Source: a virus | Direction: 5' to 3' (one strand) | DNA: 64,000 bases | IMG/VR virus record: IMGVR_UViG_3300003154_000789 | Span: 61,331 to 125,330 of that record | Shown here: piece by piece, positions 2,589 to 38,420 of the stretch | Numbering within the stretch: the first letter of the stretch is position 1 | Layout of the letters: each line of letters begins with the position of its first letter | Notes under the pieces: model-generated | Told to the model about the DNA's origin: nothing | Seen by the model: the letters and a program-made list of their open reading frames with translations, nothing else | The model's database searches: none | Translations under genes and position numbers: made by a program

Positions 2589-2615
2589 TTTTATTCTCCT
2601 GTTTGTGCTCAAGTA

Positions 2616-4700: not shown

Positions 4701-4716
4701 AATTTCTCCTTTCTAG

Positions 4717-12385: not shown

Positions 12386-12386
12386 A

Positions 12387-13376: not shown

Positions 13377-14129
13377 CTAGCAGCAGAACCCCATACCATT
13401 GCGATAATAATTCTCATCGTCGATTTCATCTGCAACACCAGTACCGTCGGCGTCTTCACCCATGGTTTCTGGAAGTACGGGATTAAAAGTTCCTTCCATG
13501 ATCTGATTTATCTTCTCTTCCATTAAATCAAGAGCTGCTTTAAGGGGCTTCTTGTTTTGTGTACGACCTAATACTGCAGGCTCAGGCTCAGCCTTAACCG
13601 CTGTTTTGGTATATGTACCTGCAAAATTGTTATAACGTGTAGTCGTGTTAACGAAAGATCCAACACCAGTGGAAGTAGCACCAGTTGTACTGGTAGATTT
13701 TTCGATTGGTTTCCCCTCAGTATATTCCTTCGGGACATTGGTAAATTTTTTGATATCCAATATTCTTGGGTCGTTTTCAAGACCATAGTTATTGGTTATC
13801 ATATCTGAATAAATCTTTTCCACCATTTCTGTCGCCAGAGATTGATCGATGTCCTCGGCGGTGAGATATGTCATGTTCTTATAGTCGTCCTCAAGTTCCT
13901 CAATCGTCATAATATTGTAGAATTTAAGATTGAGAACGTTTGTAGATTCCTTAAGACCATGTAAAAGTATGAATTTTTCATCATTTTTCTCAATGATACC
14001 CTTGAACAATCCGGCAACAACATCATACTTCGAATCTTTGTTCAATATCATTTCGAGATACACATAATTTGTCTTACAGGCTGCTTGCGTAGTATTCTGG
14101 TCTACCACCATGATTCTTTCTCCTTCCAT
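13377..14129 (-). CDS. hypothetical protein
   Basis: 250-aa ORF with Thr-rich linker. Confidence 0.7.
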   Translation of the reverse strand: MEGERIMVVDQNTTQAACKTNYVYLEMILNKDSKYDVVAGLFKGIIEKNDEKFILLHGLKESTNVLNLKFYNIMTIEELEDDYKNMTYLTAEDIDQSLATEMVEKIYSDMITNNYGLENDPRILDIKKFTNVPKEYTEGKPIEKSTSTTGATSTGVGSFVNTTTRYNNFAGTYTKTAVKAEPEPAVLGRTQNKKPLKAALDLMEEKINQIMEGTFNPVLPETMGEDADGTGVADEIDDENYYRNGMGFCC

Positions 14130-14538
14130 AAGTTAATGTCCAATGGTCTCGAAACCAGTGTCTGGTTATATACTTGAATCCCAAAGACGTAGCAAGTCTT
14201 AAACTTGCTATATTATCCTCACGAATCGTCATATATACAAATTCCGTTTCAGAGTAATTTATTGCCAAGGTTGTCAGTCGTTTCGCTATACCCATTCGTT
14301 GATGCGAAGGAAGAACACAAATATGCTGAATTTTAGTCAACGTATCATATTCTTCGAAATGCGATGCACAGCCCACCACAGTCGTATTTTCCAACTCTAC
14401 GAAGTAGCGGGCTGGAGTCATTAAAAGTGACTGAGCAGAAAACTTTGTAGCCCACTTGTTATACTGATTGAGCATATTAGCTATTTGTATAGCCATACTC
14501 TGTTCTGATACAGATACGTAGAATTCTGCCATAACCAC
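14074..14538 (-). CDS. GNAT-family acetyltransferase
   Basis: ICVLPSHQRMGIAKRL (acetyl-CoA motif A); N-x-x-S-x-x-L...LGF. Confidence 0.85.
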   Translation of the reverse strand: MVMAEFYVSVSEQSMAIQIANMLNQYNKWATKFSAQSLLMTPARYFVELENTTVVGCASHFEEYDTLTKIQHICVLPSHQRMGIAKRLTTLAINYSETEFVYMTIREDNIASLRLATSLGFKYITRHWFRDHWTLTYGRRKNHGGRPEYYASSL

Positions 14539-14541
14539 CTC

Positions 14542-15648
14542 TTAACCAAACATCTTCTTGAAAATATTACCCAATACTGACGCCTCTTCCTCATCAGCGG
14601 CAGCGACCATATCGCTCATCAACTTGACTTTCTCAGCCAGGGATTTCTTCTTATCACCGGCAACCGTTTTTGCATTATCCTTTGGAATTCCAATTACGGC
14701 TTCTTTTGGGACTTCTGCCGATTTTGGCTGAAGAATGTTTGTAATATTTGTACGAAATGCTTCCACCCACGCATCAAACGTGGTTTCTTCGAGACCAGGA
14801 CCTGAATTCACCTCAATGACCCAGGGCTTTCCGGCTGCATCAATACAGCAATCCACAGCTCCAAAGTCCAGACCGATTGCTTTCAGAGCCTTGACAGCTT
14901 CTGCTTCGAGGGCTTTGTCGATGGTTTTCACACGAACGAATTTCCAACCGAGACGGTTGGACCGAATGAGCATGTTTGCACCATCCTGGGCGAACTTCTT
15001 GGCCTGCCGACGAAGAAAAACATCCATAGTTTTCTCATCCAAAGCATCTCCATTCTTGGCAGCCAGGGAAACTTGTCGATCTTTCTCATGTTTGATGTAT
15101 GCTTCTTCCATTTCTTCGGTGGTACGTTTGGTTTTCTTTACGGCGTAGATCACCTTATCACCGACTGTATGAAGACGGAATTCGTCTTTGATTTCGATAA
15201 GATTTTGAAAATACCCGGCTCCCTCATCAATTGCCGCCAGAACATGAGACATAGTAGGGCAGTTCCAGAAACCTTTTCCGCCCTGATGGAAATTTGTACG
15301 TCCTATGACCGGTAGAATAACCGCCGATTTGGGCTGGTTTATGGTCTTTGCATGTGCTGTGTCGATAAATGGTGCTACATTCACACCGGCAGCTTGCATC
15401 AGCTTCAAAGATTCCATTTTGTTCCGGTTCAACGCGATTTTATCCGGATGATTCAATACGGGAATGCCGCCTATGGCTGTTGCTTCTTTGGTTTTCACTC
15501 CCCAACCGACGATCATACACACGTCTTTTACTGCCGGTTTCTTATCACCGTGTTTCATTCCAAGAGCTTCTGCGAGCTTTTTACCCGTAACATCTGTTGC
15601 TCCGCTGTACCAAAGATAGGCATTGTTTATGTTTTTGTCAACTGGCAT
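14542..15648 (-). CDS. ATP-grasp amide ligase (RimK-like)
   Basis: NKMESL..M, EFRLH, FGAVD...PWVIEVNSGPGL. Confidence 0.88.
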   Translation of the reverse strand: MPVDKNINNAYLWYSGATDVTGKKLAEALGMKHGDKKPAVKDVCMIVGWGVKTKEATAIGGIPVLNHPDKIALNRNKMESLKLMQAAGVNVAPFIDTAHAKTINQPKSAVILPVIGRTNFHQGGKGFWNCPTMSHVLAAIDEGAGYFQNLIEIKDEFRLHTVGDKVIYAVKKTKRTTEEMEEAYIKHEKDRQVSLAAKNGDALDEKTMDVFLRRQAKKFAQDGANMLIRSNRLGWKFVRVKTIDKALEAEAVKALKAIGLDFGAVDCCIDAAGKPWVIEVNSGPGLEETTFDAWVEAFRTNITNILQPKSAEVPKEAVIGIPKDNAKTVAGDKKKSLAEKVKLMSDMVAAADEEEASVLGNIFKKMFG

Positions 15649-15672
15649 TTTAAATATTTCTCCTTTAAGGGT

Positions 15673-16968
15673 TTAGTTCAGAAATTTAGCTCCTTCAAGC
15701 CAATTTTTCTGGAGGGTTTTGTCATAGTCTTGGAATGTTTTAGTACTGTTTTTCAACACTTCATAAAGACCATCAATGTACGTCGAATACATATTGTAGG
15801 TGGTTAGCTTTTTCATACGTCCCCACCAGGCTTTGAGAAACTTTGTAGAAATTCTGTTAACGTCTGATTTGTGAAGAAGTTCTATCATACTCTTTGACGA
15901 TAGGTTGCATCCTATATCGTTTACCAGGGGAATTTCTCCCCAATGATTGAAGTCCTCTTCCCATATATGGGCATTTCGCAATTTAGTTGGGTACATATAT
16001 TCGAGATCGAAGTTCTTATCCGCAACATGTCGATAGACCTCGTCAATAATCGCTTTGGCAGTGCCCAGGACAAGCGTAGAAAGGACTGGATGCATCAACC
16101 ACATACCACTCAACGTCCTGTGCTCCAATCTTCCATTGCACAACCTGAACTCACCAAAGTAACCATATTTACCCATAGTACATTCTGTGCGTCTTGCCCT
16201 ACCAGAAGCTGTACCATCAATTTTAATCATGGGAACAGACAGCAATTCATCCAGAATCTTGTTGAAGCTTCTGAAGAAATCTTCTCTTCTTCCGCCCTCA
16301 ATTCTGGCAACTTGAATTGGGTTTCCGATATGAATATGACCGCCGATTGGATAATCCCGATTTACATCCTTGTAATAGCAGCCAGCCACCCAACGATAAG
16401 GCTTTATGCTATTTACATGTTTGTTATCAGCCAAAAGAACCCTGATATTTTCAACGAGTTCTTCTGGTGAGATCGCCGGTTTTGGTCTTATCTCCGCCAT
16501 GGCTCCATCGCAGCCTATAGGACCATTAAAGCTGAGAACATTATTGGCTCTTACGATATTGTTGTCATTGTCAAACAAAATGAACTCGGGATCAGCTCCG
16601 ATAACCGTATCGTTTACATCTTTGGTTATCCAGATGCTTTTATATGGATTCTTATCTCCACTCCCCGTTATCTTTTGGAAAGTTTTGGTAGTGACGAAGC
16701 CTGCTCTGCTCAATTCTTCTTCGCTAATTCCATTGGCACGAGCTTTCTTTATATCTTCCGAAAATGCTTGGAAAATATTCAAAAGCATAGCCCCTCCCAG
16801 CCTTTTTTCTGTACTTTTGGTATCTGGGTATATCTCTACATTTTCATCGAAACCCAGAGTTTCACGAGCGGTCTTACTCATACGAACAAGACCGTGCTCA
16901 TTCCTACCCTCTTTCTTATTTTGATCCATTTTTTCGGATGGAATGAGCGTTAGTCTTTCACGAGCCAT
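15673..16968 (-). CDS. phiEco32-like COOH-NH2 ligase #1 with N-terminal accessory domain
   Basis: IGADPEF, GCDG..AEIRP, GGHIHIG, GYFGEFR, LEHRTLSG-x-W. Confidence 0.85.
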   Translation of the reverse strand: MARERLTLIPSEKMDQNKKEGRNEHGLVRMSKTARETLGFDENVEIYPDTKSTEKRLGGAMLLNIFQAFSEDIKKARANGISEEELSRAGFVTTKTFQKITGSGDKNPYKSIWITKDVNDTVIGADPEFILFDNDNNIVRANNVLSFNGPIGCDGAMAEIRPKPAISPEELVENIRVLLADNKHVNSIKPYRWVAGCYYKDVNRDYPIGGHIHIGNPIQVARIEGGRREDFFRSFNKILDELLSVPMIKIDGTASGRARRTECTMGKYGYFGEFRLCNGRLEHRTLSGMWLMHPVLSTLVLGTAKAIIDEVYRHVADKNFDLEYMYPTKLRNAHIWEEDFNHWGEIPLVNDIGCNLSSKSMIELLHKSDVNRISTKFLKAWWGRMKKLTTYNMYSTYIDGLYEVLKNSTKTFQDYDKTLQKNWLEGAKFLN

Positions 16969-16979
16969 TTATGTACCTC

Positions 16980-19049
16980 CTACTTGTTTTCTTTGTTTGC
17001 AACAGAAGCCACAATCTTACTCAATATGGGCATTTCCTGAAAATCACCAGGTCTAAACGCTTTTCCTAAAATTTCAGATTTAAGATCTTCTCCTTTCTCG
17101 AAAGTTTCATTTACGGCTCTATCTACAGCAGCATCATGTGTTGATTCCTCTGTTCCATTTTTCAAGATGTTCCAGAGTACACGTGTCATTGATTTCATGT
17201 TACGAATGGTGGCTTGGGCAGACCGCTGTTTATTCTGTGTCCTGATCAGAAGGCTTCTTGCATTTTTGTTTTCGTCAAAACTGCCTTCTTCATTCAATCT
17301 TGCAATATAACCGGAGTACCAAGCACGTTTGAAGAAAAAGCCTTTAATACGATTTGCCAACGAATACAATTCCATGTTTTTCATGGCGTCGATATTGGAG
17401 ATTTCCAGAGCATTCGCCAATTCTGAATTTGAACTGAAGTTTGGATGTTCACGCGTGATTTTTACAGCAGTTTCCAATACATCTGGATGAGTTCCCAAAT
17501 CGACTTCAATTTTTACAGTCTTCTCTGCAATTTCTGACTCATCTGTTTTCAGATGTTCTAAGAACTCATCGCACGGATCAGCGGTTTTATTGCGTTTATA
17601 AATAGCGATGACAGGATCTTCAGTCTTACTGCGGTCACTATTGGGATTTGACACTTCGATTTCGCTAATTCTCGCTGGATCAGAAATGAGATCGTCAACT
17701 GGTTTGTCAGATTCTTCAAGGATAAAATTCGGTTTTGTTTCGACATCATCGGTGTTAGTAATCGTAGAACTTTTTTTGACCTCTTTTTCTTCACCAACAA
17801 CGATGATATCTTGCGTTTTAATATCTATGACTCTTCCACTATCACAATCGATTTCAATGTTGCCATGTTTTTTTGTCTCCTCAACACCTACCATAGACTC
17901 ATACTGGGAAGAGGATCTGTTCCAAACCATGCAACTTCTTTGATCTACCTTACCACTCTCTGTGGAGGTAGTTGTCGGGATCGTGGGGGTTGTGGACTGG
18001 GGGCCAACTGCTTTTGACACAACCGTTGAAGGCATATTGGTCGCTGTTACTTCCGTTTTTTTTACCCCATTGTGATAATGGCAACCATGTGTAGCATTCC
18101 AATTCGGATTTGTGGTATGCGTGGTCACACCGGATCCAACTTTTGTACTTACCCAAATCTTACCGGTTCTCGGAATCTTTTCCGTCACATACAGATCTTT
18201 TATTTTAGTATCTGCAGTTATCTCTTTTCTTACATCAAAAAGAAATACGGAATCATCCGCGAGAGTTTCCACATCCACATCGCTTTTCTTCAATGGAATG
18301 AATCTCATTGGACCGGTTTGATACAAATTCGCCATCTTGTTGTAGCGAAATATCGCCATTTTGAGAAAATCCTTTTCACTTGCCACCAGAAGCAGTTTCA
18401 TTGGGCGGATAATAGCAATCTCAAGGGGTCTGCTGTCCCTGAAAGCAGCCATCTGAAATGGATTGTTACCACTGAATGCCATAACAGCGTAAGATCCGGA
18501 AATTCTCTTACAGGTCTCCTGAATGGCTTGTGTGGTGAAAGGTTCGGTACCATTGTTGGTATAGTGATGAAGTAATCGAAAAATTGCTTCACTGTCCACG
18601 TTACCATCCCTCTTGCAGCCGAGGTTGGTAAAAATCTTTTCATGGTTTGTCAGCGTGCCATTATGTACGCCAACAATGTCCCCAATTTTGATTGGGTGAT
18701 TGTTTTTGTTGTTTTCGGGTCCTGAGGCACCACCGGTAGACGGTTTGCGACAATGTCCGATCGATATCTTTGCAGGACGAACTTTCTTTCTCCAGATTTT
18801 GAGGTAGCCCTCATAATCTTCTTCCGTATCTCCAAATCTTGCGATAAACTCCTGGGCTGAGATACCCATTTTCAATCCCATATAATCGCAATCAGCGAAC
18901 ATTGTAGCGACACCGGTGGCGTCCTTTCCACGAGTCTGTGTGAGTGTGAGTAGTTCTGTTGTCAGAAAAATCATAGATTCCTGCCGAATTCTTTCCAACC
19001 TTTTCTCTTGAAATTCGCCACAGGCGAGAGCTCCGACCAGTCCGCACAT
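16980..19049 (-). CDS. class II (Ntn) glutamine amidotransferase #1 with long C-terminal extension
   Basis: MCGLVG, RGKDATG, GHCR, NNHP, HNG, DSE. Confidence 0.88.
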   Translation of the reverse strand: MCGLVGALACGEFQEKRLERIRQESMIFLTTELLTLTQTRGKDATGVATMFADCDYMGLKMGISAQEFIARFGDTEEDYEGYLKIWRKKVRPAKISIGHCRKPSTGGASGPENNKNNHPIKIGDIVGVHNGTLTNHEKIFTNLGCKRDGNVDSEAIFRLLHHYTNNGTEPFTTQAIQETCKRISGSYAVMAFSGNNPFQMAAFRDSRPLEIAIIRPMKLLLVASEKDFLKMAIFRYNKMANLYQTGPMRFIPLKKSDVDVETLADDSVFLFDVRKEITADTKIKDLYVTEKIPRTGKIWVSTKVGSGVTTHTTNPNWNATHGCHYHNGVKKTEVTATNMPSTVVSKAVGPQSTTPTIPTTTSTESGKVDQRSCMVWNRSSSQYESMVGVEETKKHGNIEIDCDSGRVIDIKTQDIIVVGEEKEVKKSSTITNTDDVETKPNFILEESDKPVDDLISDPARISEIEVSNPNSDRSKTEDPVIAIYKRNKTADPCDEFLEHLKTDESEIAEKTVKIEVDLGTHPDVLETAVKITREHPNFSSNSELANALEISNIDAMKNMELYSLANRIKGFFFKRAWYSGYIARLNEEGSFDENKNARSLLIRTQNKQRSAQATIRNMKSMTRVLWNILKNGTEESTHDAAVDRAVNETFEKGEDLKSEILGKAFRPGDFQEMPILSKIVASVANKENK

Positions 19050-19082
19050 ATTTCCTCCTAGTTTTAAAAGATTATATGAAAT

Positions 19083-19865
19083 TTAACTCTTATTTGTTTT
19101 TAACTTCAATGACTCTATTTTGCGTCGTTCTATTTCATTGTTCATCCTATCTATACAGTGAGATATATACATACTCCCTATAAAAGATTTTTCACGAACA
19201 TTGACTCCGTCAACGAATAGTATATTATCAGGATAGGAATTTACAATAAAATGCATCTCATTGAGAAATGACATTCTACGAAGTTTTTCGCTACTTTTTT
19301 GCCACATCAATGTTACATCTATCGCCATCCCATCAGCTTTTTTCTTGTTGTATATAGGGATAGCATACTGAAGATCATACATTGTTACAACAAGAGATAA
19401 TATATCCCCATTAACCGAGGGGCCTTTATTACTTCCGGAGTTATTATTACCACAGAACGAAGTACAAGGAAACTCCTTTTTGAAATAACCTAAACCTTTG
19501 ATGAACTCTATCGCCGCCAGAGGCTCTTCTATTACGAAAGTTATAGCCCCATCAGCACGAATAAACTCCTGAATTTTTCTTACTTTCTTATATTCAAATT
19601 CATCTATGGTTTTTACACGCCTGTTTTTGATAATTTTCTTTGGTTGCAAAGGCAGGATAGACTTCTCACTTATGTGTATGTAACTTCTGCAATGATGACC
19701 TATCGAGGACGGGAAATATATGGTGCCTCTGACAACATATGGATCAACTCTTTCAGCGATTATTGGCGTGAGTAAGGGAACACCTTGTCCCTCATCATAT
19801 GCTACTATGGCAGTATAAGCGGATTCCTTATCCGCTATACCTAGTAAGATTTCAACTAATTCCAT
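19083..19865 (-). CDS. hypothetical protein
   Basis: 260-aa ORF within the amidoligase cluster. Confidence 0.7.
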   Translation of the reverse strand: MELVEILLGIADKESAYTAIVAYDEGQGVPLLTPIIAERVDPYVVRGTIYFPSSIGHHCRSYIHISEKSILPLQPKKIIKNRRVKTIDEFEYKKVRKIQEFIRADGAITFVIEEPLAAIEFIKGLGYFKKEFPCTSFCGNNNSGSNKGPSVNGDILSLVVTMYDLQYAIPIYNKKKADGMAIDVTLMWQKSSEKLRRMSFLNEMHFIVNSYPDNILFVDGVNVREKSFIGSMYISHCIDRMNNEIERRKIESLKLKTNKS

Positions 19866-19886
19866 ACGATTCCTCCCAGAATCAAG

Positions 19887-20675
19887 TTAATACATTGTGT
19901 AATGTTTAGGCTCTTCAAGGGTAAATCGATGTATTTTATTTCTGTAAAGATCTATACCGATTCCAGAATTCTGCTCAAGTTTAATTATTTTGCCTTCTTC
20001 AAGAAAGCCGCTTACTGAAGTTTTGATATAGCTTTTTTCAGATGCCCAGGAAAGTAGACCAACATCTTCGAATAGCACCACATCGCACGGATTGTAACGA
20101 CGAAAGAGCCATATAACATGAGGCTGTAACCTGTGTACCATTGCACAGGCAAAACTTCCATGGGTTATAACTGACATTTTTTGAATGGCTTCGTGGATTT
20201 TGCATTCTTTTGCGAAATAACTTATTAAAGAAAAGATTATCTCACTATCCACTTCACCATTTCGTTTGAAAGAACGAGAGTACATACCAAATAACTCGTC
20301 ATCATTGGATATACAACCATTATGCACACCCACAACATCATTACATATGATTGGGTGGTTATTGATGTTATTTGTTTCAGTACCCTTTGTTTTTAGACGA
20401 CAATGCCCTATAACAGATAGTGGACGGCTTTTTGAAGTATCAAAAGTCATACAATCAGTTTCAGCTTTGTCATATTCTGGTAGATTTATAAAGGTTTGAG
20501 CGGGCACATTTTTCTTGATAACCTTAATGCCGTCGTAAGAAACATAGGCGAGACCGGAAGCTGTCCGACCTCGCACCATATTCTGTATGAATAACGCCCT
20601 TATTAAGTTTTGAATCAAGCTCCCATTACGCATTGTATGCCCGTGCAAAAATCCTAACCCGAAAATTGCACACAT
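19887..20675 (-). CDS. class II (Ntn) glutamine amidotransferase #2
   Basis: MCAIFG, RGRTASG, GHCR, NNHP, GVHNG, VDSE. Confidence 0.88.
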   Translation of the reverse strand: MCAIFGLGFLHGHTMRNGSLIQNLIRALFIQNMVRGRTASGLAYVSYDGIKVIKKNVPAQTFINLPEYDKAETDCMTFDTSKSRPLSVIGHCRLKTKGTETNNINNHPIICNDVVGVHNGCISNDDELFGMYSRSFKRNGEVDSEIIFSLISYFAKECKIHEAIQKMSVITHGSFACAMVHRLQPHVIWLFRRYNPCDVVLFEDVGLLSWASEKSYIKTSVSGFLEEGKIIKLEQNSGIGIDLYRNKIHRFTLEEPKHYTMY

Positions 20676-20688
20676 CCGTGAGACCTCC

Positions 20689-23530: not shown

Positions 23531-23543
23531 ATTTCTCCTTAAA

Positions 23544-25515: not shown

Positions 25516-25521
25516 TGTATT

Positions 25522-25947
25522 TTACCTTTTTCCGAAAACCTCTTTTATTGTCCGACCATCAGGCAGCTTCCAGTATGTCCAACCACTTCTTCTAACACCG
25601 CTAACAGTTTCGGCGGCGGCAGACAAAGAATCATACTTTGTTATACCTATGTAATAACCATCTGCATTAACAGTCAGTACATGAATTCCACCCTTTACAG
25701 ATGTCCCCATTAAGCTCAAGCCGATTGGTACGCCGTCTTTATTAGCGTTAGCAAAACAAGGATTATCATATACTTCCTGTTGTCTTTTATCTTTCACTCG
25801 GATGCTACTTATAACATGAAAGGCTTTTATCAAGTCCTCCACTTGCTTCTGTAGAGCCTCGACTCTTTCTTCAATAGTTGTAGGCTCACTTACAATTGCG
25901 ACGCCACTACCTGCCATCGCTGTACCTAATGCAATCTTTTCTCCCAT
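25522..25947 (-). CDS. RAMA/DUF4357-like DNA-binding domain protein
   Basis: C-terminal SLSAAA...SGWTYWK motif. Confidence 0.6.
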   Translation of the reverse strand: MGEKIALGTAMAGSGVAIVSEPTTIEERVEALQKQVEDLIKAFHVISSIRVKDKRQQEVYDNPCFANANKDGVPIGLSLMGTSVKGGIHVLTVNADGYYIGITKYDSLSAAAETVSGVRRSGWTYWKLPDGRTIKEVFGKR

Positions 25948-26022
25948 GAGTTTCCTCCTAAGCATGTTGTTTCCAGTTGAAAGGTTTGTTATACTGAAGG
26001 CCGGGCTAGCCGACCTTCAATA

Positions 26023-26403: not shown

Positions 26404-26414
26404 CTCCTTATATT

Positions 26415-30603: not shown

Positions 30604-30616
30604 GCAACATGCTCCT

Positions 30617-31603: not shown

Positions 31604-31635
31604 ACTACCTCCAAGTTTGGTTTTCGATTAGAGAG

Positions 31636-32796: not shown

Positions 32797-32804
32797 ACCA
32801 CCTC

Positions 32805-33341: not shown

Positions 33342-33344
33342 TTA

Positions 33345-33794
33345 TCAAAATACCTCCTTGATGTGTAACTCACGCGAAATTGTGACAGCATTTGGGGTGT
33401 GCTTTGGAAGACAATTATATTCAGCGTAGACAGAATTGGTCATAATGTCTTTCAGAAGAGTACTCCAAGGCATCGCCATAAATTGATCGTTTGGTTTGGC
33501 TTGAAATGCTATCGCAGACTTCAATTTTGCGATGTATATGATGATGTTCTTATCTTCTATCCCCTTTGTTGGTGGATACCTTTTTATTTCGGCAAAATCA
33601 TCATTGTAGTTGAATGGATTTATTCCGAATAAGTTTAGAAGAATATCATTCACACAATCTAGAGGTGCTTCTGTAGCCTTGATGTAACGCTCAATGGTAA
33701 TGCACCACTGAGCGTTATTTGTCAGCTTATGAAGTAAGATTCGTTTATCCGGCAGCTGTACTGCCATATTCACACATCGCAAGCCGTTCATCAT
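33345..33794 (-). CDS. hypothetical protein (possible Nudix-like fold, no Nudix box)
   Basis: ILL.K...W.I.......EAPLDCV layout; catalytic REUxEE absent. Confidence 0.45.
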   Translation of the reverse strand: MMNGLRCVNMAVQLPDKRILLHKLTNNAQWCITIERYIKATEAPLDCVNDILLNLFGINPFNYNDDFAEIKRYPPTKGIEDKNIIIYIAKLKSAIAFQAKPNDQFMAMPWSTLLKDIMTNSVYAEYNCLPKHTPNAVTISRELHIKEVF

Positions 33795-34470
33795 TGTCTG
33801 TTCCCCTGGTATAAGCTGCAATGAATTCTTCCCATGGAAGTTCCAAAGCATCAATAATCATGTTTCTGTAATAATTAAAGCCTGCTGTGGTCTCAGCCAT
33901 AGCTTCAGGATGATATTGAACACCGAAAGCTTTTATTTTTGGGAAAATAACAGCTTCATTTTCTTTTCCGCGATAATCAACTTTCAGATCTGCATTGCCG
34001 ATGTACGATATCGAAAGGCTCTTTGCCGCCCAACCGATAACCTTTGCTCCTACGGGAGGAAGAATCATTTGATGATGATAACTGTTCACTATGAGTCTGT
34101 TACCAGCAGCCGTTTCCATAAGATGATCACGTCCAGCATGTCCGGTTACGTCATGCATCATACGTCCACCAGCCATAACGTTAAGGAACTGAACCCCTCT
34201 GCAGATGCCGGTCATCTTTATCCCATGTTCGAGGGCTTTCTCATAAATGGCAATTTCAAATTTATCTCTTTCCATAGAGTAGTGACAAATACCTTTTGGA
34301 CTTGTATCACCATAAAGCATCGGAGTAATATCTTCCCCACCAGTGAACAACACCAGTTTGAATTCACGTGGGTTTTCCAGAAATTCTCTTGATCTAACAG
34401 TCACATCCCCTAAACCTTCGACAGGACTTCTGTAACTGCTACCATTTAATACCAAAATCTTGTTGGGCAT
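33745..34470 (-). CDS. class I glutamine amidotransferase / peptidase C26 #1
   Basis: FTGGEDI, GICRG, NSYHHQ, GVQYHPE. Confidence 0.9.
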   Translation of the reverse strand: MPNKILVLNGSSYRSPVEGLGDVTVRSREFLENPREFKLVLFTGGEDITPMLYGDTSPKGICHYSMERDKFEIAIYEKALEHGIKMTGICRGVQFLNVMAGGRMMHDVTGHAGRDHLMETAAGNRLIVNSYHHQMILPPVGAKVIGWAAKSLSISYIGNADLKVDYRGKENEAVIFPKIKAFGVQYHPEAMAETTAGFNYYRNMIIDALELPWEEFIAAYTRGTDNDERLAMCEYGSTAAG

Positions 34471-34481
34471 TACTTTCTCCT

Positions 34482-34784
34482 TTATGCGGGCAGGTCGATA
34501 TTTGCTTCTGATTTGGCGGCGTCATCTTTCTTGCCTTTGGTAGGTTCATCTGGTAATATAGCCATGTCAAAGACTTCCGTCTCCGGGATCACTCGTACTT
34601 CAGGCGTGTCGATGAATTTGATGACATATGATGGACGTCTTCCTTTGGCTCCGGAACTGTAGCCATCACGACAATATAGAATTTCGGAAACAGTATGTCC
34701 GCCTTCAACTACGGGATCACCAACGCGGAAGATGATAGGAAGTGCCAGATTTCTTGCATCACGAACGATCTCTACGATTTTCAT
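34482..34784 (-). CDS. hypothetical protein
   Basis: ORF with RBS AGGAG. Confidence 0.6.
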   Translation of the reverse strand: MKIVEIVRDARNLALPIIFRVGDPVVEGGHTVSEILYCRDGYSSGAKGRRPSYVIKFIDTPEVRVIPETEVFDMAILPDEPTKGKKDDAAKSEANIDLPA

Positions 34785-34811
34785 GTATCTTATCTCCTTG
34801 ATAAATGTTTG

Positions 34812-35201
34812 TTATTTTGGCAAAGGCCAGCAGCCAGATTCAATCTTTTTTGCATGCTTTGGAACCTTGAAATTGAATACGTAGATATTTGCTTCCTTTA
34901 TTTCCCCGGCTTCGGTTTTGACTTGGACGCGTCTTCTCAAATACATACCATCCCTCAATTCGGGCTGATATCCTTCAATCATATCCATCGAGTGTGTAAC
35001 TTTCTCGGGATCTTTGTATTCATGAAGCTCACCCACAACTTTACCGGTTCCCGGTTTTATTCCAGGAAAAGAACCAAGATCAAATAGGTCGAATTTCTCG
35101 ACTTCAGCCTTTACGGAATTCAACCTGGCGGAATCAAATTGCTTTGCAAATCGTCCACCTACCTTAAGTGTACCATACACAAAGAACAAATCAGTTTTCA
35201 T
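34812..35201 (-). CDS. gamma-glutamylcyclotransferase (AIG2-like)
   Basis: FVYGTLK, FPG, V.GEL, D.IEG...Y.R. Confidence 0.92.
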   Translation of the reverse strand: MKTDLFFVYGTLKVGGRFAKQFDSARLNSVKAEVEKFDLFDLGSFPGIKPGTGKVVGELHEYKDPEKVTHSMDMIEGYQPELRDGMYLRRRVQVKTEAGEIKEANIYVFNFKVPKHAKKIESGCWPLPK

Positions 35202-35219
35202 TAGGTATTTCCTTTCATG

Positions 35220-36479
35220 TTAATATCGATATGCGGAACTCGATGTTGTTGAGATAGTATACATAGTGGTGCCCGTTGTGGTTCCCCAAGACGATGATAA
35301 ATTGCCCGCCGATCCATGTGTTGAGGTATCAACTGGAATAGCCATAGTTGCGTTACTGAAGGGATTTTCCAGCTTGGCTTCTAACTTTTTAAATGTTGGC
35401 TCAAAACGCTTGGGTTTGTTTCCTAAAGATTTTTTTTCATAATACTGTCGTAGTTTTCTTTCGATATCATGAGCCTGCCCGCTGTTGGCTGTTTCATAAT
35501 AGATATTACCAATTGGGGTCTGTTTTACTCTTAAATTTATACCTGATTTCGAAGCAAATAATTCAAGTAGACTAAGACATTCATTGATGTTTCCAGAAAA
35601 GAATGTTTCTATCTGATGTTTGGAGATCTCCTGCATATATCCGCCGGAAAATAAACTTTCCTTAGGGCCACCATGCATGAAATTATACTCTTTCAATTCT
35701 TCACTACGTGGAATGCCACTTTTTTTGTTTCTCAATTCTCTTAACCGTAGTTCTTTTTTCTTAGCCCTCTCCCTGGAGTCCTCAATTTCTTTTATCACTT
35801 TGTTTACGTTTATTGTGTTCTTCCAACCACGGGAAACCAATTTTTCAACGCGGGCTCCCAGAGCATCAAGGTATATAGTATCGGAACTTTTGTTTATACG
35901 AAGAACACCCTCCATACAATCCTGATATGCTCCTGGGACAGCTTCAAAGATACGCCCATCACAAAGCATTATCATGCCGCAACAGACAATGTCCACCATG
36001 CGTGCAACGTAGATAGCACTTTGCAAGGGGTCTCTGTCTTGATATTTGGATGTTATGAGTTGTACTACTTTTCCGCCCATAGTTACGAATGAGGAAATGG
36101 ATGACATCGGAGCAAACTTTTTAGCCATGTCACCAGAGTTTTTTATTTTCAATACTGGAGCTTTGGCTACCGGCTGTGCTACTTCATCTTCATCGTCTGA
36201 ATTTATGGAAAAGATTTCCATGGCGGAGGAATTAAATGGAATCCATTTTGGATTAGTCTGAAAAGCTTCAGAGATTTTATGGAAATCATCCTGAGGAACC
36301 GCAAAATCAAGATCGCCAACCAATTCCTTATTGGCTATGCAATCTCTAACGGCACCCCCATATATGATTGAATGCGGTGTCATAAATTCCAGAGCATTAT
36401 CAAACCGCTCCATGATGATTTCCTGTACCCATCCGACATCTTCTATCTCTTTCAAATATCCCGATATTTCAGGTTTCAT
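35220..36479 (-). CDS. second polymerase-beta-superfamily nucleotidyltransferase
   Basis: IYGGAVRD...DLDFAV motif A; divergent remainder. Confidence 0.65.
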   Translation of the reverse strand: MKPEISGYLKEIEDVGWVQEIIMERFDNALEFMTPHSIIYGGAVRDCIANKELVGDLDFAVPQDDFHKISEAFQTNPKWIPFNSSAMEIFSINSDDEDEVAQPVAKAPVLKIKNSGDMAKKFAPMSSISSFVTMGGKVVQLITSKYQDRDPLQSAIYVARMVDIVCCGMIMLCDGRIFEAVPGAYQDCMEGVLRINKSSDTIYLDALGARVEKLVSRGWKNTINVNKVIKEIEDSRERAKKKELRLRELRNKKSGIPRSEELKEYNFMHGGPKESLFSGGYMQEISKHQIETFFSGNINECLSLLELFASKSGINLRVKQTPIGNIYYETANSGQAHDIERKLRQYYEKKSLGNKPKRFEPTFKKLEAKLENPFSNATMAIPVDTSTHGSAGNLSSSWGTTTGTTMYTISTTSSSAYRY

Positions 36480-36712
36480 GCTATCGTTTTCTCCTGTATC
36501 TCAATGCATTTTATAGAGACAGTACTTGTGTCTGAAACAGCGTCTTCGAAAGCCATAGCTAACAACCAAGGGGTTATAGGCATCGACTTGATGTACGTTA
36601 TCGTAGAATCTCTTTCCTTCATTCTACGAAAATGTCGCACAATGTGCCGAAGCCTATAAACCACTTCAAGTATCGTGTCGTCCTCATATGTTATTTTTAC
36701 ATTAAATGCCAT
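36476..36712 (-). CDS. hypothetical protein
   Basis: Likely start MAFNVK at 36712. Confidence 0.5.
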   Translation of the reverse strand: MAFNVKITYEDDTILEVVYRLRHIVRHFRRMKERDSTITYIKSMPITPWLLAMAFEDAVSDTSTVSIKCIEIQEKTIA

Positions 36713-36720
36713 TACTTCTC

Positions 36721-37503
36721 CTACACAGCTTCGAAATGTTGTTGAAGCCCTGTTTCCTGATTGAGAAAGAAATTGCGAAGAAGATTGATATCTCGCAATT
36801 CTTCTGGATGCCACTGAACAGCAAGAATGGGACTGCCCCATTTCAATATTCGGAAGGCTTCACAAACAACTTCGGTACTTACTTTGTTTTTAGCCAATTT
36901 CAATCCACGCTGCGTCCATGCAGCCATACGGAAAGCTCTAGCTCCGAGAACATTCTTTTGCTTAAAATCGGCAACCAAGCATTGATGGTGCATACTGTTT
37001 ACCGGCATATGATGTGGCAGAGCCGAATCAGGTTTGATACCATACAGCGTATTTGGGGCATACTCAACATAATGTTGACAAATGTTTCTGGATAGTTGTT
37101 GATTATCAACCTGATTGTGCTCGCTGATGTGTTCACAGAAATATAGGAATTCATCCATCTTGTTGTCGGCAAGCATGTATTCTCTTGCAATCAACTGAAA
37201 ACCGCGGCAGATGCCAAATATTGGGAGGCCACGTTCTCTGGACATATGAAAAAGATTTCGTTCGAATGTATCTTTTTCCGGGTCAACGGCAAAAGATGAA
37301 CTGTTGTCTTCTCCGTAATAAATGGGATCCAAATCAATTCCTCCTGGAAGTACCAAACCTTCGATCATGCCGAGTACCATTTCGGTTGGCATTTCAGGTG
37401 TGATAAGAATTGGAGTCAGCCCAGCTTCTGCTACGTATTGGACATAAGCTTGGTTGATGAAGTATTGTGTCTTGCTTGAGGATGCTACTATTCCGATTTT
37501 CAT
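36721..37503 (-). CDS. class I glutamine amidotransferase / peptidase C26 #2
   Basis: LPGGIDLDP, GICRGFQ, VNSMHHQ, AVQWHPE. Confidence 0.9.
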   Translation of the reverse strand: MKIGIVASSSKTQYFINQAYVQYVAEAGLTPILITPEMPTEMVLGMIEGLVLPGGIDLDPIYYGEDNSSSFAVDPEKDTFERNLFHMSRERGLPIFGICRGFQLIAREYMLADNKMDEFLYFCEHISEHNQVDNQQLSRNICQHYVEYAPNTLYGIKPDSALPHHMPVNSMHHQCLVADFKQKNVLGARAFRMAAWTQRGLKLAKNKVSTEVVCEAFRILKWGSPILAVQWHPEELRDINLLRNFFLNQETGLQQHFEAV

Positions 37504-38420
37504 GCAGCCTTCTCCTTTCCGTAGAGATTCCATTCAGCATGGAAGTTCATATCATTGGCTTTCACTTTTGCCAATGCTTCGTTGAAATAAAATATGGAGT
37601 CATTGCTCAGTCGCGGAATCAACGAGACCTCAATCATTTTCATGGCGACTGCAGCATCACCATTGGAAATGGTATTCCGCACCTGATTCTCATCCATTTC
37701 TTCAATGAGTTCATCTGCCTTGCCATTACGAACAATGGACAGGGCATCCTGAGTTAAGGAATACATCATCATCACTGTGATCGGGCTTTTGAGCCAGTAG
37801 TTGGAAAGCACCCGGTATTCTACACCATATTCTTTGGGTCGGTGGGCACCAGGTTTGCCATAAAGCTGCCGCCGATCAATGGCTTCTTTGTTGGAGTCAA
37901 GTACCGAAGAGATGATGCCATGAATACAGTCCATAATCTTCACCATCTGCAGCTTTCCCTCAAAGTCGAGCAAGAAGACATTTTCATCTTTTCCGTCGGT
38001 TCCCACATGGATATGAGCCCCGCAAGAGCGGAAAGTGTTGTCCACTGCACAAGGTTTGTCATTTTCTTTTACTTCCCAGGCATCGAAATCCGGGTTACAG
38101 CCAAATGCTTGTGCTTCAGGATGGGTAAGCTGATCAGGATCGAAGCTTGCAGAAGGTGCCGCCACTATTTCGGTATCGCTGGGCAAGGTCTTGATGGCTT
38201 CCGTTAGTGTGTTTCGAATGTTACTTACAAAACTTTCCACACTGTCTGCAGGATCTGTGGCTATTTCCATCGCCACGTTATCTCTCTGGATATTTCCACC
38301 GAGTGGAAGCCTGAAAGGCATGTCTTTTGTTCCGGTAATGAATGGGATTGCAGAAATCAACTTTCCACTTTTACGCTCTTTCAAAAAGAATTCGGGATCA
38401 CACCCAATAGTCATTGTCAT
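37500..38420 (-). CDS. phiEco32-like COOH-NH2 ligase #3
   Basis: IGCDPEFF, DNVAMEI, GCNPDF, GAHIHVG, RRQLYGKPG..R.KEYGVEYRVLSNYW. Confidence 0.92.
   Translation of the reverse strand: MTMTIGCDPEFFLKERKSGKLISAIPFITGTKDMPFRLPLGGNIQRDNVAMEIATDPADSVESFVSNIRNTLTEAIKTLPSDTEIVAAPSASFDPDQLTHPEAQAFGCNPDFDAWEVKENDKPCAVDNTFRSCGAHIHVGTDGKDENVFLLDFEGKLQMVKIMDCIHGIISSVLDSNKEAIDRRQLYGKPGAHRPKEYGVEYRVLSNYWLKSPITVMMMYSLTQDALSIVRNGKADELIEEMDENQVRNTISNGDAAVAMKMIEVSLIPRLSNDSIFYFNEALAKVKANDMNFHAEWNLYGKEKAA

What the first reader, a model, noticed from the sequence alone, without database searches (positions are those of the whole stretch)
14074..38420. Strongly expanded phage amide-ligase / peptide-modification system
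Seen: consecutive GNAT, ATP-grasp, COOH-NH2 ligase #1, Ntn GATase #1, an unknown, Ntn GATase #2, a Cys-rich amidoligase and ligase #2 (14074-23530). A second block holds class I GATase, GGCT, a nucleotidyltransferase, a second class I GATase and ligase #3 (33745-38420). Known: phiEco32-type phages encode a small cluster of COOH-NH2 ligase, ATP-grasp, GATase and GGCT, predicted to make or attach glutamate-containing peptides. Inference: four ligases and four ammonia-donor enzymes imply a multi-step assembly line for an unknown product. Candidates include a peptide-like metabolite, a protein tag, a cell-wall/receptor modification or a nucleic-acid hypermodification.
Basis: partly seen in the sequence, partly recalled or inferred. 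Interest (0 to 1): 0.87.

Follow-up and report, generated by a model that had tools for sequence, protein, structure and literature searches.

The report
Expanded amide-ligase cassette of huge phages
An uncultivated giant groundwater phage carries, as core genes, an enlarged two-part version of a phage gene cassette known since 2009, with five amide-bond-forming enzymes plus enzymes that split glutamine or remove glutamyl groups; what the cassette makes or modifies is still unknown.

Summary
On the minus strand, 14074-23560 encodes GNAT, ATP-grasp, COOH-NH2 ligase, long Ntn GATase, an unknown, short Ntn GATase, a Cys-rich ligase and a second COOH-NH2 ligase. 33745-38420 encodes two C26/class-I GATase proteins, GGACT, an NTase-like protein and a third ligase. 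A confident model confirms the Cys-rich protein as a GCS2/PafA-type ligase (Z 19). Gene-by-gene comparison shows an expanded, split version of the phiEco32/LUZ24/RIO-1 cassette. Ligase 3, C26a, GGACT, ATP-grasp, an Ntn GATase and the Amidoligase_2-like protein match the classical set. Ligases 1 and 2, C26b, the second Ntn GATase and GNAT are additions. Both blocks are syntenic in a clade of 230-330 kb uncultivated phages and as conserved as the RNAP and helicase.

Corrections:
- The C26 proteins resemble gamma-glutamyl-amine hydrolases, not ammonia donors.
- The NTase is Gad2/PolyA-pol-like and absent from two near-complete relatives.
- The roughly 10 kb between the blocks is unrelated.

New here: ligases 1 and 2 carry an N-terminal Cdc48/VAT-N-like double-psi barrel, hinting at a macromolecular substrate. 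Known DNA-hypermodification entry enzymes were not found. The product remains unknown. The scan found this cassette before on other DNA (e1-4506500, e1-4597624). Verdict: new variant of a known kind.

The parts
14074..14538 (-). GNAT acetyltransferase (154 aa); an addition relative to the classical cassette
   Evidence: Pfam Acetyltransf_1 E 3.5e-13. NCBIfam best match is RimI, E 1.8e-10, below cut-off. An R-x-x-G-x-A CoA motif is visible by eye. Present in all 11 block-1 loci.
14542..15648 (-). RimK-like ATP-grasp ligase (368 aa); counterpart of tf_24 / Af_39
   Evidence: Pfam RimK E 1.3e-5. PHROG 2599 E 3.6e-30. NCBIfam RimK family E 3.8e-11. BLASTP to the classical ATP-grasp proteins E 1e-13.
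15673..16968 (-). Ligase 1 (431 aa): N-terminal double-psi beta-barrel (residues 1-117) plus a GCS2/PafA-type COOH-NH2 ligase (118-431)
   Evidence: Pfam PF14395 E 1.1e-30. AF2 pLDDT 92. VIA Z 16.6 to YbdK, 14.2-14.6 to PafA/Dop, and 8.4-9.8 to DPBB/Cdc48-N/VAT-N domains. 404 relatives at E <= 0.001.
16980..19049 (-). Long Ntn (class II) GATase (689 aa): GATase domain of ~270 aa, a Ser/Thr-rich linker and a C-terminal domain of unknown fold
   Evidence: Pfam GATase_6 and GATase_7. PHROG 4736 E 6e-23. The MCGLVG start and the GlmS-type Arg, Asn-Gly and Asp are visible by eye. BLASTP to Af_40/tf_22 E 1e-17.
19083..19865 (-). Unknown 260-aa protein lying between the two Ntn GATases; fast-evolving
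   Evidence: No Pfam, PHROG or Atlas signal. tblastn detects it in 6 of the 11 block-1 loci, at 26-36% identity.
19887..20675 (-). Short stand-alone Ntn GATase (262 aa)
   Evidence: Pfam GATase_6 E 1.4e-10. Nearest solved structure is the GlmS glutaminase domain, E 1e-7. Starts MCAIFG. Seven of eight orthologues keep the Cys.
20689..22377 (-). Cys-rich GS-fold ligase (562 aa), Amidoligase_2-like, with a ~85-aa insert holding 16 Cys
   Evidence: No Pfam hit. AF2 pLDDT 91. VIA Z 19.1 to GCL, 17.8-18.5 to YbdK, about 16 to Dop/PafA. Invariant catalytic set in the alignment. HHalign to tf_21/Af_41: 88.5% probability, E 2.7e-6.
22343..23560 (-). Ligase 2 (395-405 aa): N-terminal DPBB-like domain plus COOH-NH2 ligase; likely start is the ATG at 23530
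   Evidence: Pfam PF14395 E 1.1e-19, with a weak MazE/AbrB hit at residues 35-63. Its N-terminus is homologous to the ligase 1 DPBB (HHalign 77%, E 2e-5).
33745..34470 (-). C26a: Peptidase_C26 / class-I GATase-fold protein (241 aa); counterpart of the classical cassette's class-I protein
   Evidence: Pfam C26 E 2.4e-22. PHROG 7218 E 5e-37. 35% identical to Af_45, E 4e-28. Nearest solved structures: Lin1909, 7d4r-type and PuuD.
34482..34784 (-). Small 100-aa ORF of unknown function; poorly conserved
   Evidence: No family hit. Only a weak match to the L005 counterpart, E 0.05.
34812..35201 (-). GGACT / AIG2-like gamma-glutamyl(amine) cyclotransferase (129 aa)
   Evidence: Pfam GGACT E 3.2e-18. 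PHROG 2520 E 1e-16. One copy in each of G000-G003. Missing from locus L005.
35220..36479 (-). Pol-beta-type nucleotidyltransferase-like protein (419 aa), Gad2/PolyA_pol-head-like; a lineage-specific insertion rather than a core cassette member
   Evidence: No Pfam or PDB sequence hit. Atlas feature score 0.93 to Gad2 clusters, structural TM 0.76 by target over residues 14-223. Only 37 relatives. Absent from G002, G003 and G004.
36476..36712 (-). Small ORF of ~78 aa (the listed 121-aa frame probably starts at its internal Met); not conserved in sequence
   Evidence: A 78-86-aa ORF sits at the same position in relatives. No BLAST match to the L005 counterpart.
36721..37533 (-). C26b: a second, divergent Peptidase_C26 protein (270 aa)
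   Evidence: Pfam C26 E 2e-29. Nearest solved structures: Lin1909 E 1.6e-12 and PuuD E 3.6e-9. NCBIfam PuuD-type E 9e-11, below cut-off.
37500..38420 (-). Ligase 3 (306 aa): classical phiEco32/LUZ24-type COOH-NH2 ligase without an N-terminal domain
   Evidence: PHROG 3815 E 2e-61 over its full length. tblastn finds 319 phage records at 34-40% identity. BLASTP to tf_19/Af_43 E 1e-40 to 1e-53.
38423..40044 (-). Two tandem ~270-aa paralogs directly upstream of ligase 3; syntenic in relatives; function unknown; membership of the system is only positional
   Evidence: They form a paralog family with 42365-43204 and 45727-46530 (BLASTP E 1e-8 to 1e-21). Syntenic. No relation to tf_17/tf_18 detected.

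Best explanation
This is an expanded, two-block version of the phiEco32/LUZ24/RIO-1-type phage amidoligase cassette. It is fixed as a core gene set in a clade of uncultivated ~230-330 kb phages; this one comes from groundwater.

It encodes five ATP-dependent amide-bond formers: three PF14395 ligases, one Cys-rich Amidoligase_2-like ligase and one RimK-like ATP-grasp enzyme. It also encodes a GNAT, two Ntn glutaminase-type domains and three gamma-glutamyl-bond-cleaving enzymes (two PuuD-like C26 hydrolases and GGACT).

Working model (inferred): in the cytoplasm of the infected cell, the ligases activate carboxylates as acyl-phosphates. They build a short glutamate-containing (gamma- or alpha-glutamyl) amide-linked modification on an amine-bearing acceptor. 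That acceptor is most likely a protein or peptide, recognised by the Cdc48/VAT-N-like barrel on ligases 1 and 2. The Ntn domains supply ammonia to amidate a carboxylate, or trim gamma-glutamyl amides. The GNAT caps a free amine. The C26 hydrolases and GGACT remove gamma-glutamyl groups, either as erasers or as protecting-group removal.

Shown: folds, catalytic motifs, homology to the classical cassette, synteny and core-gene status. Inferred: the chemistry, the order of steps and the acceptor.
For: - Family and fold assignments.
- One-to-one matches to the classical cassette of phage tf and Alcaligenes phage QDWS535.
- Block 1 is syntenic in 11 loci. The Cys-rich ligase is 45-74% identical and ligase 1 38-68%, comparable to the helicase, RuvB-like ATPase and RNAP. 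Block 2 is syntenic.
- G000-G003 each hold three PF14395 genes, two C26 genes and one GGACT gene.
- Gamma-glutamyl-amine chemistry: the C26 proteins are nearest to PuuD, to 7d4r-type proteins and to gamma-glutamyl-CDP-amidate hydrolase. GGACT belongs to PF06094. A Cys-less relative of the Cys-rich ligase sits next to two GGACT genes.
- Protein or peptide acceptor: the DPBB N-domain is nearest to AAA+ N-domains (Z 8.4-9.0, rmsd 2.3-3.1 A), against expansins at rmsd 3.3-4.2 A. The ligase domains are as close to PafA/Dop as to GCL. The adjacent ATP-grasp and GNAT best match RimK and RimI, which modify ribosomal proteins.
Against: - No substrate was identified. The small ORFs and the tail of u250 are not conserved, so there is no Pup-like tag candidate.
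- The DPBB fold also occurs in glycan-binding proteins (expansins, Z 7.4-8.3) and in many other contexts, so the fold alone does not prove protein binding.
- The ligase domains are equally close to small-molecule ligases (YbdK, GCL).
- The NCBIfam matches to RimI, RimK and PuuD are all far below their curated cut-offs.
- There is no expression data or biochemistry. The complex prediction for the Cys-rich ligase with the short Ntn GATase gave no verdict.
- Even the classical cassette has never been characterised experimentally in the literature I could search.
Confidence: 0.42

Rival explanations
1. Modification of cell-wall precursors. The cassette rebuilds or alters the peptidoglycan stem peptide on cytoplasmic precursors (UDP-MurNAc-peptide or lipid II). 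The stem has gamma-linked D-Glu, amidated carboxylates and D-Ala-D-Ala-type bonds. The proposed purpose is to change the cell surface, for example to exclude superinfecting phages or to control lysis. This is the published hypothesis for the classical cassette.
For: - PMC5498523 (section 'Peptidoglycan Modification Cassette', citing Hardies 2013 and Iyer) proposes exactly this for RIO-1, phiEco32, LUZ24, tf and others.
- The ATP-grasp enzyme also matches D-Ala-D-Ala ligases.
- A ligase paired with a glutaminase recalls MurT/GatD and AsnB-type amidation of stem peptides (established knowledge).
- DPBB domains of expansin type bind glycan; matches at Z 7.4-8.3.
- An SLT transglycosylase gene lies just upstream of block 2.
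Against: - No Mur-ligase, Fem-type or transpeptidase genes lie in the blocks.
- I saw no obvious signal peptides in the printed sequences; this was by eye and not formally tested.
- The DPBB is structurally closer to AAA+ N-domains than to expansins.
- The hypothesis has never been tested.
- It is unclear why a surface change would need four GS-fold ligases and be as conserved as the RNAP.
Confidence: 0.2
2. Small-molecule metabolism. The enzymes make and recycle gamma-glutamyl conjugates of small amines such as polyamines (Puu/Pau-like logic) or a glutathione-like peptide. Alternatively they act as auxiliary nitrogen-metabolism genes.
For: - A GS-fold ligase paired with a C26 hydrolase is the signature of the PuuA/PuuD gamma-glutamyl-polyamine pathway, and PuuD is among the nearest solved relatives of both C26 proteins.
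- GNAT (like SpeG), ATP-grasp (like glutathionylspermidine synthetase) and GGACT all have polyamine-related analogues (established knowledge).
- The ligase domains are nearest to YbdK and GCL, which are small-molecule ligases.
- PMC10945688 reads the classical cassette of phage ZRK32 as nitrogen-metabolism AMGs.
Against: - The ligases belong to PF14395 or are Amidoligase_2-like. They are not Gln-synt_C (PuuA-type).
- AMG-type genes are usually sporadic, whereas this set is core and as conserved as the replication and transcription genes.
- The DPBB N-domains and the Zn-type Cys insert are unusual for enzymes acting on small metabolites.
- The eLife interpretation rests on growth effects, not enzymology.
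Confidence: 0.2
3. Nucleic-acid hypermodification. The ligases, amidotransferases and GNAT decorate a DNA base (as in amino-acid-derived thymidine hypermodifications) or an RNA or tRNA nucleoside.
For: - Lee et al. (PMC8989533) report amidoligase and amidotransferase genes co-located with 5-HMUDK/AADT thymidine-hypermodification genes in viral metagenomes, and a GNAT that acetylates 5-NmdU in DNA.
- The blocks lie among replication and transcription genes.
- The genome is rich in RNA-repair and tRNA genes.
- The Cys-rich insert and an AbrB-like barrel could bind nucleic acid.
Against: - No thymidylate-synthase-family hydroxymethylase in G000, G002, G004 or the 100%-complete relative G001; the positive controls rang.
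- No TGT/DpdA in G000-G003; the controls rang.
- No AADT or TET/JBP hits. These two searches had no positive control, so they count as weak negatives.
- The classical cassette occurs in LUZ24-like and phiEco32-like phages, which to my knowledge are not reported to have hypermodified DNA.
Confidence: 0.1
4. The two blocks are not one system. Block 2 is the classical cassette core, and block 1 is an independent pathway that merely uses related enzyme families.
For: - The blocks are about 10 kb apart, separated by RNAP, helicase and unknown genes.
- In G002, GGACT lies a further ~10 kb away.
Against: - In classical phages, the counterparts of genes from both blocks are contiguous in one cassette: COOH-NH2 ligase, Amidoligase_2, Ntn GATase, ATP-grasp, GGCT.
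- Both blocks co-occur in every near-complete relative examined.
Confidence: 0.08

Closest known systems
phiEco32 / LUZ24 / PaP3 / tf / RIO-1-type phage amidoligase cassette, also called the 'peptidoglycan modification cassette' (Iyer et al. 2009; Hardies et al. 2013; PMC5498523)
   Same: It has the same enzyme families, and the genes are detectably homologous: COOH-NH2 ligase (ligase 3, 34-40% identity), Amidoligase_2-like ligase, Ntn GATase, RimK-like ATP-grasp, GGCT/GGACT and a class-I GATase/C26 protein. It is likewise embedded among replication and transcription genes, and its product is likewise unknown.
   Different: - It is split into two blocks about 10 kb apart.
- It has two extra PF14395 ligases carrying an N-terminal double-psi barrel, a second Ntn GATase, a second C26 protein, a GNAT and several unknowns.
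- The Amidoligase_2 homologue has a 16-Cys insert and falls outside the Pfam model.
- It sits in ~250-kb phages with their own RNAP and sigma factor, not in 40-80 kb podophages.
- It behaves as a strongly conserved core gene set.
Pup ligase PafA and depupylase Dop (prokaryotic ubiquitin-like tagging)
   Same: GS-fold carboxylate-amine ligase domains (Z 14-16.5 to PafA/Dop). The predicted chemistry, a gamma-glutamyl-amine isopeptide, matches what GGACT-type enzymes cleave. Dedicated removal enzymes are present.
   Different: No Pup-like tag gene was found. No proteasome was looked for. The N-terminal DPBB domain is not found in PafA. Similarity to YbdK and GCL is equal or higher.
PuuA/PuuD and P. 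aeruginosa PauA/SpuA gamma-glutamyl-polyamine pathways
   Same: They pair GS-fold ligases with Peptidase_C26 gamma-glutamyl-amine hydrolases, and PuuD is among the nearest solved relatives of both C26 proteins.
   Different: The ligases here are PF14395 or Amidoligase_2-like, not Gln-synt_C. The oxidase and dehydrogenase steps of the Puu pathway are absent. The context is a phage core region.
RimK / RimI ribosomal-protein modification enzymes
   Same: The adjacent ATP-grasp and GNAT genes best match the RimK family and RimI in NCBIfam and PHROGs.
   Different: Scores are far below the equivalog cut-offs, so these are family-level resemblances only. The target was not tested.
Gad2 (Gabija anti-defence 2) / PolyA_pol-head nucleotidyltransferases
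   Same: The N-terminal ~225 aa of the 419-aa protein resemble these families, by Atlas features (0.93) and predicted structure (TM 0.76 by target).
   Different: No HMM-level hit here. The C-terminal half is unrelated. Anti-Gabija activity is untested. The gene is not conserved with the cassette.

Membership tests
phiEco32/LUZ24/RIO-1-type phage amidoligase cassette | A phiEco32-like COOH-NH2 ligase type 2 (PF14395 / phrog_3815) | tested here: met
   Ligase 3: phrog_3815 E 2e-61 over its full length, and 34-40% identity to 319 phage records. Ligases 1 and 2 also hit PF14395.
phiEco32/LUZ24/RIO-1-type phage amidoligase cassette | A second amidoligase of the Amidoligase_2 (PF12224) type | tested here: inconclusive
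   The Pfam model does not detect the Cys-rich ligase. However, its family profile hits tf_21 (hmmsearch E 1.8e-6; HHalign 88.5%, E 2.7e-6) over the catalytic core, and its fold is GS/GCS2.
phiEco32/LUZ24/RIO-1-type phage amidoligase cassette | A class II (Ntn) glutamine amidotransferase next to the amidoligase | tested here: met
   The short Ntn GATase lies directly downstream of the Cys-rich ligase. The long one matches Af_40/tf_22 at E 1e-17.
phiEco32/LUZ24/RIO-1-type phage amidoligase cassette | A RimK-like ATP-grasp enzyme | tested here: met
   phrog_2599 E 3.6e-30. BLASTP to Af_39/tf_24 E 1e-13 and 4e-7.
phiEco32/LUZ24/RIO-1-type phage amidoligase cassette | A gamma-glutamyl cyclotransferase (AIG2/GGACT-like) | tested here: met
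   PF06094 E 3.2e-18. phrog_2520 E 1e-16. BLASTP to tf_25 E 8e-8.
phiEco32/LUZ24/RIO-1-type phage amidoligase cassette | One contiguous cassette of about seven genes | tested here: not met
   There are two blocks, 14074-23560 and 33745-38420, about 10 kb apart with RNAP, helicase and unknown genes between them. The same split is seen in G001-G003.
Pupylation system (PafA/Dop/Pup) | GS-fold ligase or deamidase of the PafA/Dop type | tested here: inconclusive
   Z 14.2-16.5 to PafA/Dop, but equal or higher to YbdK and GCL.
Pupylation system (PafA/Dop/Pup) | A small tag protein with a conserved C-terminal Gln or Glu | tested here: not met
   The small ORFs (78 aa and 100 aa) and the tail of u250 are not conserved among relatives. 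Only ORFs in and around the blocks were examined.
Thymidine hypermodification clusters (5-HMUDK / AADT) | A dUMP/dCMP hydroxymethylase of the thymidylate-synthase family (PF00303) | tested here: not met
   Absent from G000, G002, G004 and the 100%-complete G001; present only in G003. The controls rang in 10 of 14 genomes.
Thymidine hypermodification clusters (5-HMUDK / AADT) | An amino-acid:DNA transferase (PF18724) or a TET/JBP dioxygenase (PF12851) | tested here: inconclusive
   No hits in G000-G003, but no control genome rang, so the negatives are weak.
7-deazaguanine DNA modification (DpdA/TGT) | A TGT-family transglycosylase (PF01702) | tested here: not met
   No hit in G000-G003; the controls rang in 14 of 14 genomes.
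Class I glutamine amidotransferase acting as an ammonia donor | A Cys-His-Glu triad | tested here: met
   GICRG plus HPE in both proteins, read from the sequences.
Class I glutamine amidotransferase acting as an ammonia donor | Fusion to, or tight pairing with, a synthase or acceptor domain, and closest similarity to amidotransferase subunits | tested here: not met
   Both are stand-alone proteins. Their best families are Peptidase_C26, PuuD and gamma-glutamyl-CDP-amidate hydrolase, ahead of the GuaA and CarA glutaminase domains.
Gad2 anti-Gabija nucleotidyltransferase | Membership of PF26128 and a pol-beta NTase active site | tested here: inconclusive
   Atlas features 0.93 and structural TM 0.76 by target. 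A GG-x-VRD...D-L-D motif is visible by eye. No hit in the local Pfam copy, and I did not check whether that copy holds PF26128.

The most novel reading that the evidence does not exclude
A virus-encoded protein- or peptide-tagging system with ubiquitin/Pup-like logic. PafA-like ligases fused to a Cdc48/VAT-N-type substrate-recognition barrel write glutamate-based isopeptide tags on host or phage proteins, and dedicated gamma-glutamyl hydrolases and a cyclotransferase erase them. The system would be essential to a whole clade of huge phages.
Probability: 0.15. Interest if true: 0.9.

Novelty: new variant of a known kind. Interest (0 to 1): 0.6.

Why it matters
The classical amidoligase cassette was predicted in 2009. 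It occurs in hundreds of cultured phages, including LUZ24-like therapeutic candidates, yet I found no experimental account of its product in the literature I could search.

In this huge-phage lineage the cassette is doubled in size and as conserved as the RNA polymerase. That argues it does something central to infection rather than being an optional metabolic extra.

The barrel-fused ligases give a concrete handle: a candidate substrate-binding domain that can be used for pull-downs. The reassignment of the C26 proteins as gamma-glutamyl hydrolases reframes the system as write-and-erase or protecting-group chemistry, which narrows what to look for by mass spectrometry.

Solving it would explain a widespread phage function. 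It could also reveal a new post-translational or cell-envelope modification.

Tried and rejected
- Near-identical and protein-level searches of GenBank phages with block 1, ligase 1 and the RNAP found nothing. A single-sequence IMG/VR search also failed; the alignment-based search worked.
- PDB sequence searches for the Cys-rich ligase and the NTase gave nothing useful.
- Pfam on ten Cys-less relatives of the Cys-rich ligase gave no family.
- The Atlas was uninformative for the 274-aa paralog and the 260-aa unknown; its own models of both are poor.
- HHalign of the ~270-aa paralog family against tf_17, tf_18, tf_20 and the Alcaligenes-phage unknowns showed no relation.
- u250 as a substrate or tag: its C-terminus is not conserved.
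- The small ORFs as conserved peptide substrates: not conserved.
- Complex prediction for the Cys-rich ligase with the short Ntn GATase returned 'no answer' (score 0.00), which is evidence neither for nor against binding.
- Sigma-70 promoter counts were at chance level. Terminator-like sites were somewhat above the shuffle mean in the first scan (21 against 13.3, sd 3.5), but those I checked lie inside coding sequence. No operon boundaries could be drawn.
- The genome search could not reach the metagenome records behind L001-L004.
- Iyer et al. 2009 (PMC3268129) is not held. What I say about its content rests on citing papers and my own knowledge.
- No RNA run holds the stretch, so there is no expression evidence.
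- I considered whether the neighbouring RuvB-like AAA+ could be an Mpa-like unfoldase. I rejected this because it hits all three RuvB-specific Pfam domains.

Full report
WHAT IS THERE

The window lies in a 141.5-kb IMG/VR virus record with 37% GC. CheckV rates it about 54% complete, so the full genome is probably about 250 kb. Near-identical DNA occurs in groundwater metagenomes.

All long ORFs between 11.5 and 41 kb are on the minus strand and tightly packed.

Block 1, in transcription order:
- SF2 helicase (23544-24944)
- ligase 2 (22343-23560; the likely start is the ATG at 23530)
- a 562-aa Cys-rich protein (20689-22377)
- a short Ntn GATase (19887-20675)
- a 260-aa unknown (19083-19865)
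- a 689-aa Ntn GATase (16980-19049)
- ligase 1 (15673-16968)
- an ATP-grasp enzyme (14542-15648)
- a GNAT (14074-14538)
- then a 250-aa unknown, a RuvB-like AAA+ ATPase, a sigma-70-like factor and a canonical CCA-adding enzyme

Block 2, in transcription order:
- two ~270-aa paralogs (38423-40044)
- ligase 3 (37500-38420)
- C26b (36721-37533)
- a ~78-aa ORF
- an NTase-like protein (35220-36479)
- GGACT (34812-35201)
- a 100-aa ORF
- C26a (33745-34470)

The roughly 10 kb between the blocks encodes a 1139-aa fused beta/beta-prime RNAP, a DUF4357/RAMA-like protein and unknowns. It is not part of the enzyme set.

TESTING THE TWO UNSUPPORTED CALLS

The Cys-rich protein has no Pfam, PHROG or PDB sequence hit. 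An exhaustive search found 208 representative relatives, none with a Pfam family. In a 60-sequence alignment the invariant residues are E40, E42, E189, H227, N265, R292, E348, R350 and D353, and H229 is nearly invariant.

The AF2 model has pLDDT 91 and pTM 0.83. By Foldseek it matches only the glutamine-synthetase / carboxylate-amine-ligase superfamily. By VIA-align it scores Z 19.1 to plant glutamate-cysteine ligase, 17.8-18.5 to YbdK and about 16 to Dop/PafA. Its family profile also recognises the Amidoligase_2 protein of phage tf (HHalign 88.5%, E 2.7e-6) over the DGSL...G-E...CS-H-H core.

The 'nucleotidyltransferase' has no HMM hit. The Atlas places its first ~225 residues with Gad2 / PolyA_pol-head nucleotidyltransferases (feature score 0.93; TM 0.76 by target).

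RELATION TO THE KNOWN CASSETTE

Ligase 3 finds 319 GenBank phages (LUZ24, PaP3, tf, phiEco32-like and others) at 34-40% identity. Ligase 1 finds none.

The annotated cassettes of phage tf and Alcaligenes phage QDWS535 contain a COOH-NH2 ligase, Amidoligase_2, a ~500-aa Ntn GATase, a RimK-like ATP-grasp enzyme and GGCT. The Alcaligenes phage also has a class-I 'peptidase'.

Pairwise and profile comparisons give one-to-one counterparts:
- ligase 3 with tf_19 (E 1e-40)
- C26a with Af_45 (35% identity, E 4e-28)
- ATP-grasp with Af_39/tf_24
- long Ntn GATase with Af_40/tf_22
- GGACT with tf_25
- Cys-rich ligase with tf_21

Ligases 1 and 2, C26b, the short Ntn GATase, the GNAT and the unknowns are additions or divergent duplicates. 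Their PHROG hits are only partial.

The literature calls the classical set a 'peptidoglycan modification cassette', thought to block superinfection (PMC5498523), or nitrogen-metabolism AMGs (PMC10945688). I found no experimental test of either idea.

CONSERVATION

Ligase 1 has 404 relatives at E <= 0.001, many on contigs of 200-330 kb. Block 1 is syntenic in all 11 loci examined. Identities are 45-74% for the Cys-rich ligase and 38-68% for ligase 1, similar to the helicase, the RuvB-like ATPase and the RNAP. Block 2 is syntenic in two further places.

Four virus records each hold three PF14395 genes, two C26 genes and one GGACT gene. One of them is rated 100% complete (268.8 kb). These are core genes of a huge-phage clade.

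The NTase is different. It has only 37 relatives and is absent from G002, G003 and G004. It is a lineage-specific insertion, perhaps a counter-defence gene.

WHAT THE ENZYMES SUGGEST

Both C26 proteins keep the Cys-His-Glu triad but are stand-alone. They score best as Peptidase_C26. Their nearest characterised relatives are PuuD and gamma-glutamyl-CDP-amidate hydrolase. From memory, the 7d4r-type hits are SpuA. All of these enzymes hydrolyse gamma-glutamyl-X amides rather than feeding ammonia to a synthase. GGACT-family enzymes cleave gamma-glutamyl-amines. A Cys-less relative of the Cys-rich ligase sits beside two GGACT genes. Three of the 'accessory' enzymes therefore point to gamma-glutamyl-amine bonds being made and later removed.

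The two Ntn domains keep Cys1 and the GlmS-type glutamine-binding residues. They could donate ammonia, or they could act like EgtC amidohydrolases. In one lineage the short one has lost its Cys.

The adjacent ATP-grasp and GNAT best match RimK and RimI, at family level only.

The ligase 1 model (pLDDT 92) shows a feature not reported for the classical cassette. Residues 1-117 form a double-psi beta-barrel. Matches are Z 9.8 (rmsd 2.2 A, 83 aligned) to a VAT-derived designed DPBB, and Z 8.4-9.0 to the N-domains of MSMEG_0858, CDC48, PEX1 and VAT. Expansin-type barrels are somewhat worse (Z 7.4-8.3, rmsd 3.3-4.2 A). The N-terminus of ligase 2 is homologous to it. Ligase 3 and the classical ligases lack it. 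In AAA+ ATPases this domain recognises substrates and adaptors, so I read it as a hint of a macromolecular acceptor.

TARGET

Tests for known DNA-hypermodification entry points were negative. There is no TS-family hydroxymethylase in G000, G001, G002 or G004, and no TGT; both searches had working controls. There is also no AADT or TET/JBP, but those searches had no control.

No conserved tag-like small protein was found.

My ranking of the readings:
- protein- or peptide-directed glutamyl-type writer/eraser system: about 0.4
- cell-wall precursor modification: about 0.2
- small-molecule gamma-glutamyl or polyamine-type metabolism: about 0.2
- nucleic-acid modification: about 0.1

None of these is demonstrated.

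PRIOR NOTES

The scan met the same cassette on other DNA (e1-4506500, e1-4597624), with the same verdict. I re-derived that verdict independently. I also added the DPBB domains, the C26 reassignment, the non-core status of the NTase and the negative DNA-modification markers.

VERDICT

This is a new variant of a known, still unsolved, kind of system.

Noticed in passing
window 27184-30603 (-): A 1139-aa single polypeptide has Pfam hits to RNA_pol_Rpb2_6 (residues 253-472) and RNA_pol_Rpb1_2 (756-834), so it looks like a fused minimal beta/beta-prime RNAP. It is conserved at 52-61% identity in relatives. A sigma-70-like gene lies at 11492-12445.
   Followed up: partly
window 50632-51996 (-): A YcaO-family gene (Pfam E 1.6e-50) sits in a phage genome, upstream of the cassette. 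Its partner and substrate were not examined.
   Followed up: no
window 38423-39247, 39247-40044, 42365-43204, 45727-46530 (-): Four dispersed ~270-aa paralogs (pairwise BLASTP E 1e-8 to 1e-21) have orthologues in L005 and L012. There is no Pfam, PHROG or Atlas signal, and no relation to the hypotheticals upstream of the classical ligase.
   Followed up: partly
window 40060-40572 and 40466-41290 (-): A peptide deformylase and an SLT lytic transglycosylase lie directly upstream of block 2. Both are syntenic in relatives.
   Followed up: no
L007:5912-6703 (same in L010): In this lineage the short Ntn GATase orthologue starts MGSIFG. The nucleophile Cys is replaced by Gly, so the enzyme is probably inactive there while the rest of block 1 is kept.
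   Followed up: no
L005:20842-21209 onward: The orthologue of the helicase upstream of block 1 is 774 aa and carries a LAGLIDADG_3 hit. This suggests an intein or homing-endonuclease insertion.
   Followed up: no
L016:458-3145: A 429-aa relative of the Cys-rich ligase that lacks the Cys insert is followed directly by two GGACT-family genes on a short metagenome contig.
   Followed up: partly
window 16980-19049, 13377-14129, 35220-36479 (-): Three proteins in or next to the cassette carry long Ser/Thr-rich low-complexity segments: the linker of the long Ntn GATase, the middle of u250 and the tail of the NTase. Their meaning is unknown.
   Followed up: no
window 2142-2612 and 3566-4741 (-): A NUDIX hydrolase (E 3.6e-19) and a 391-aa protein with a class II aldolase/adducin domain (E 2.5e-9) lie in the tRNA and RNA-repair part of the window.
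   Followed up: no
G003:C1:120269-121126 (L013): Of the five related records searched, only G003 encodes a thymidylate-synthase-family protein (E 3.7e-91).
   Followed up: no
window 25522-25965 (-): A 147-aa protein has sub-threshold DUF4357, DUF2924 and RAMA hits. It is conserved just upstream of the helicase in all relatives.
   Followed up: no
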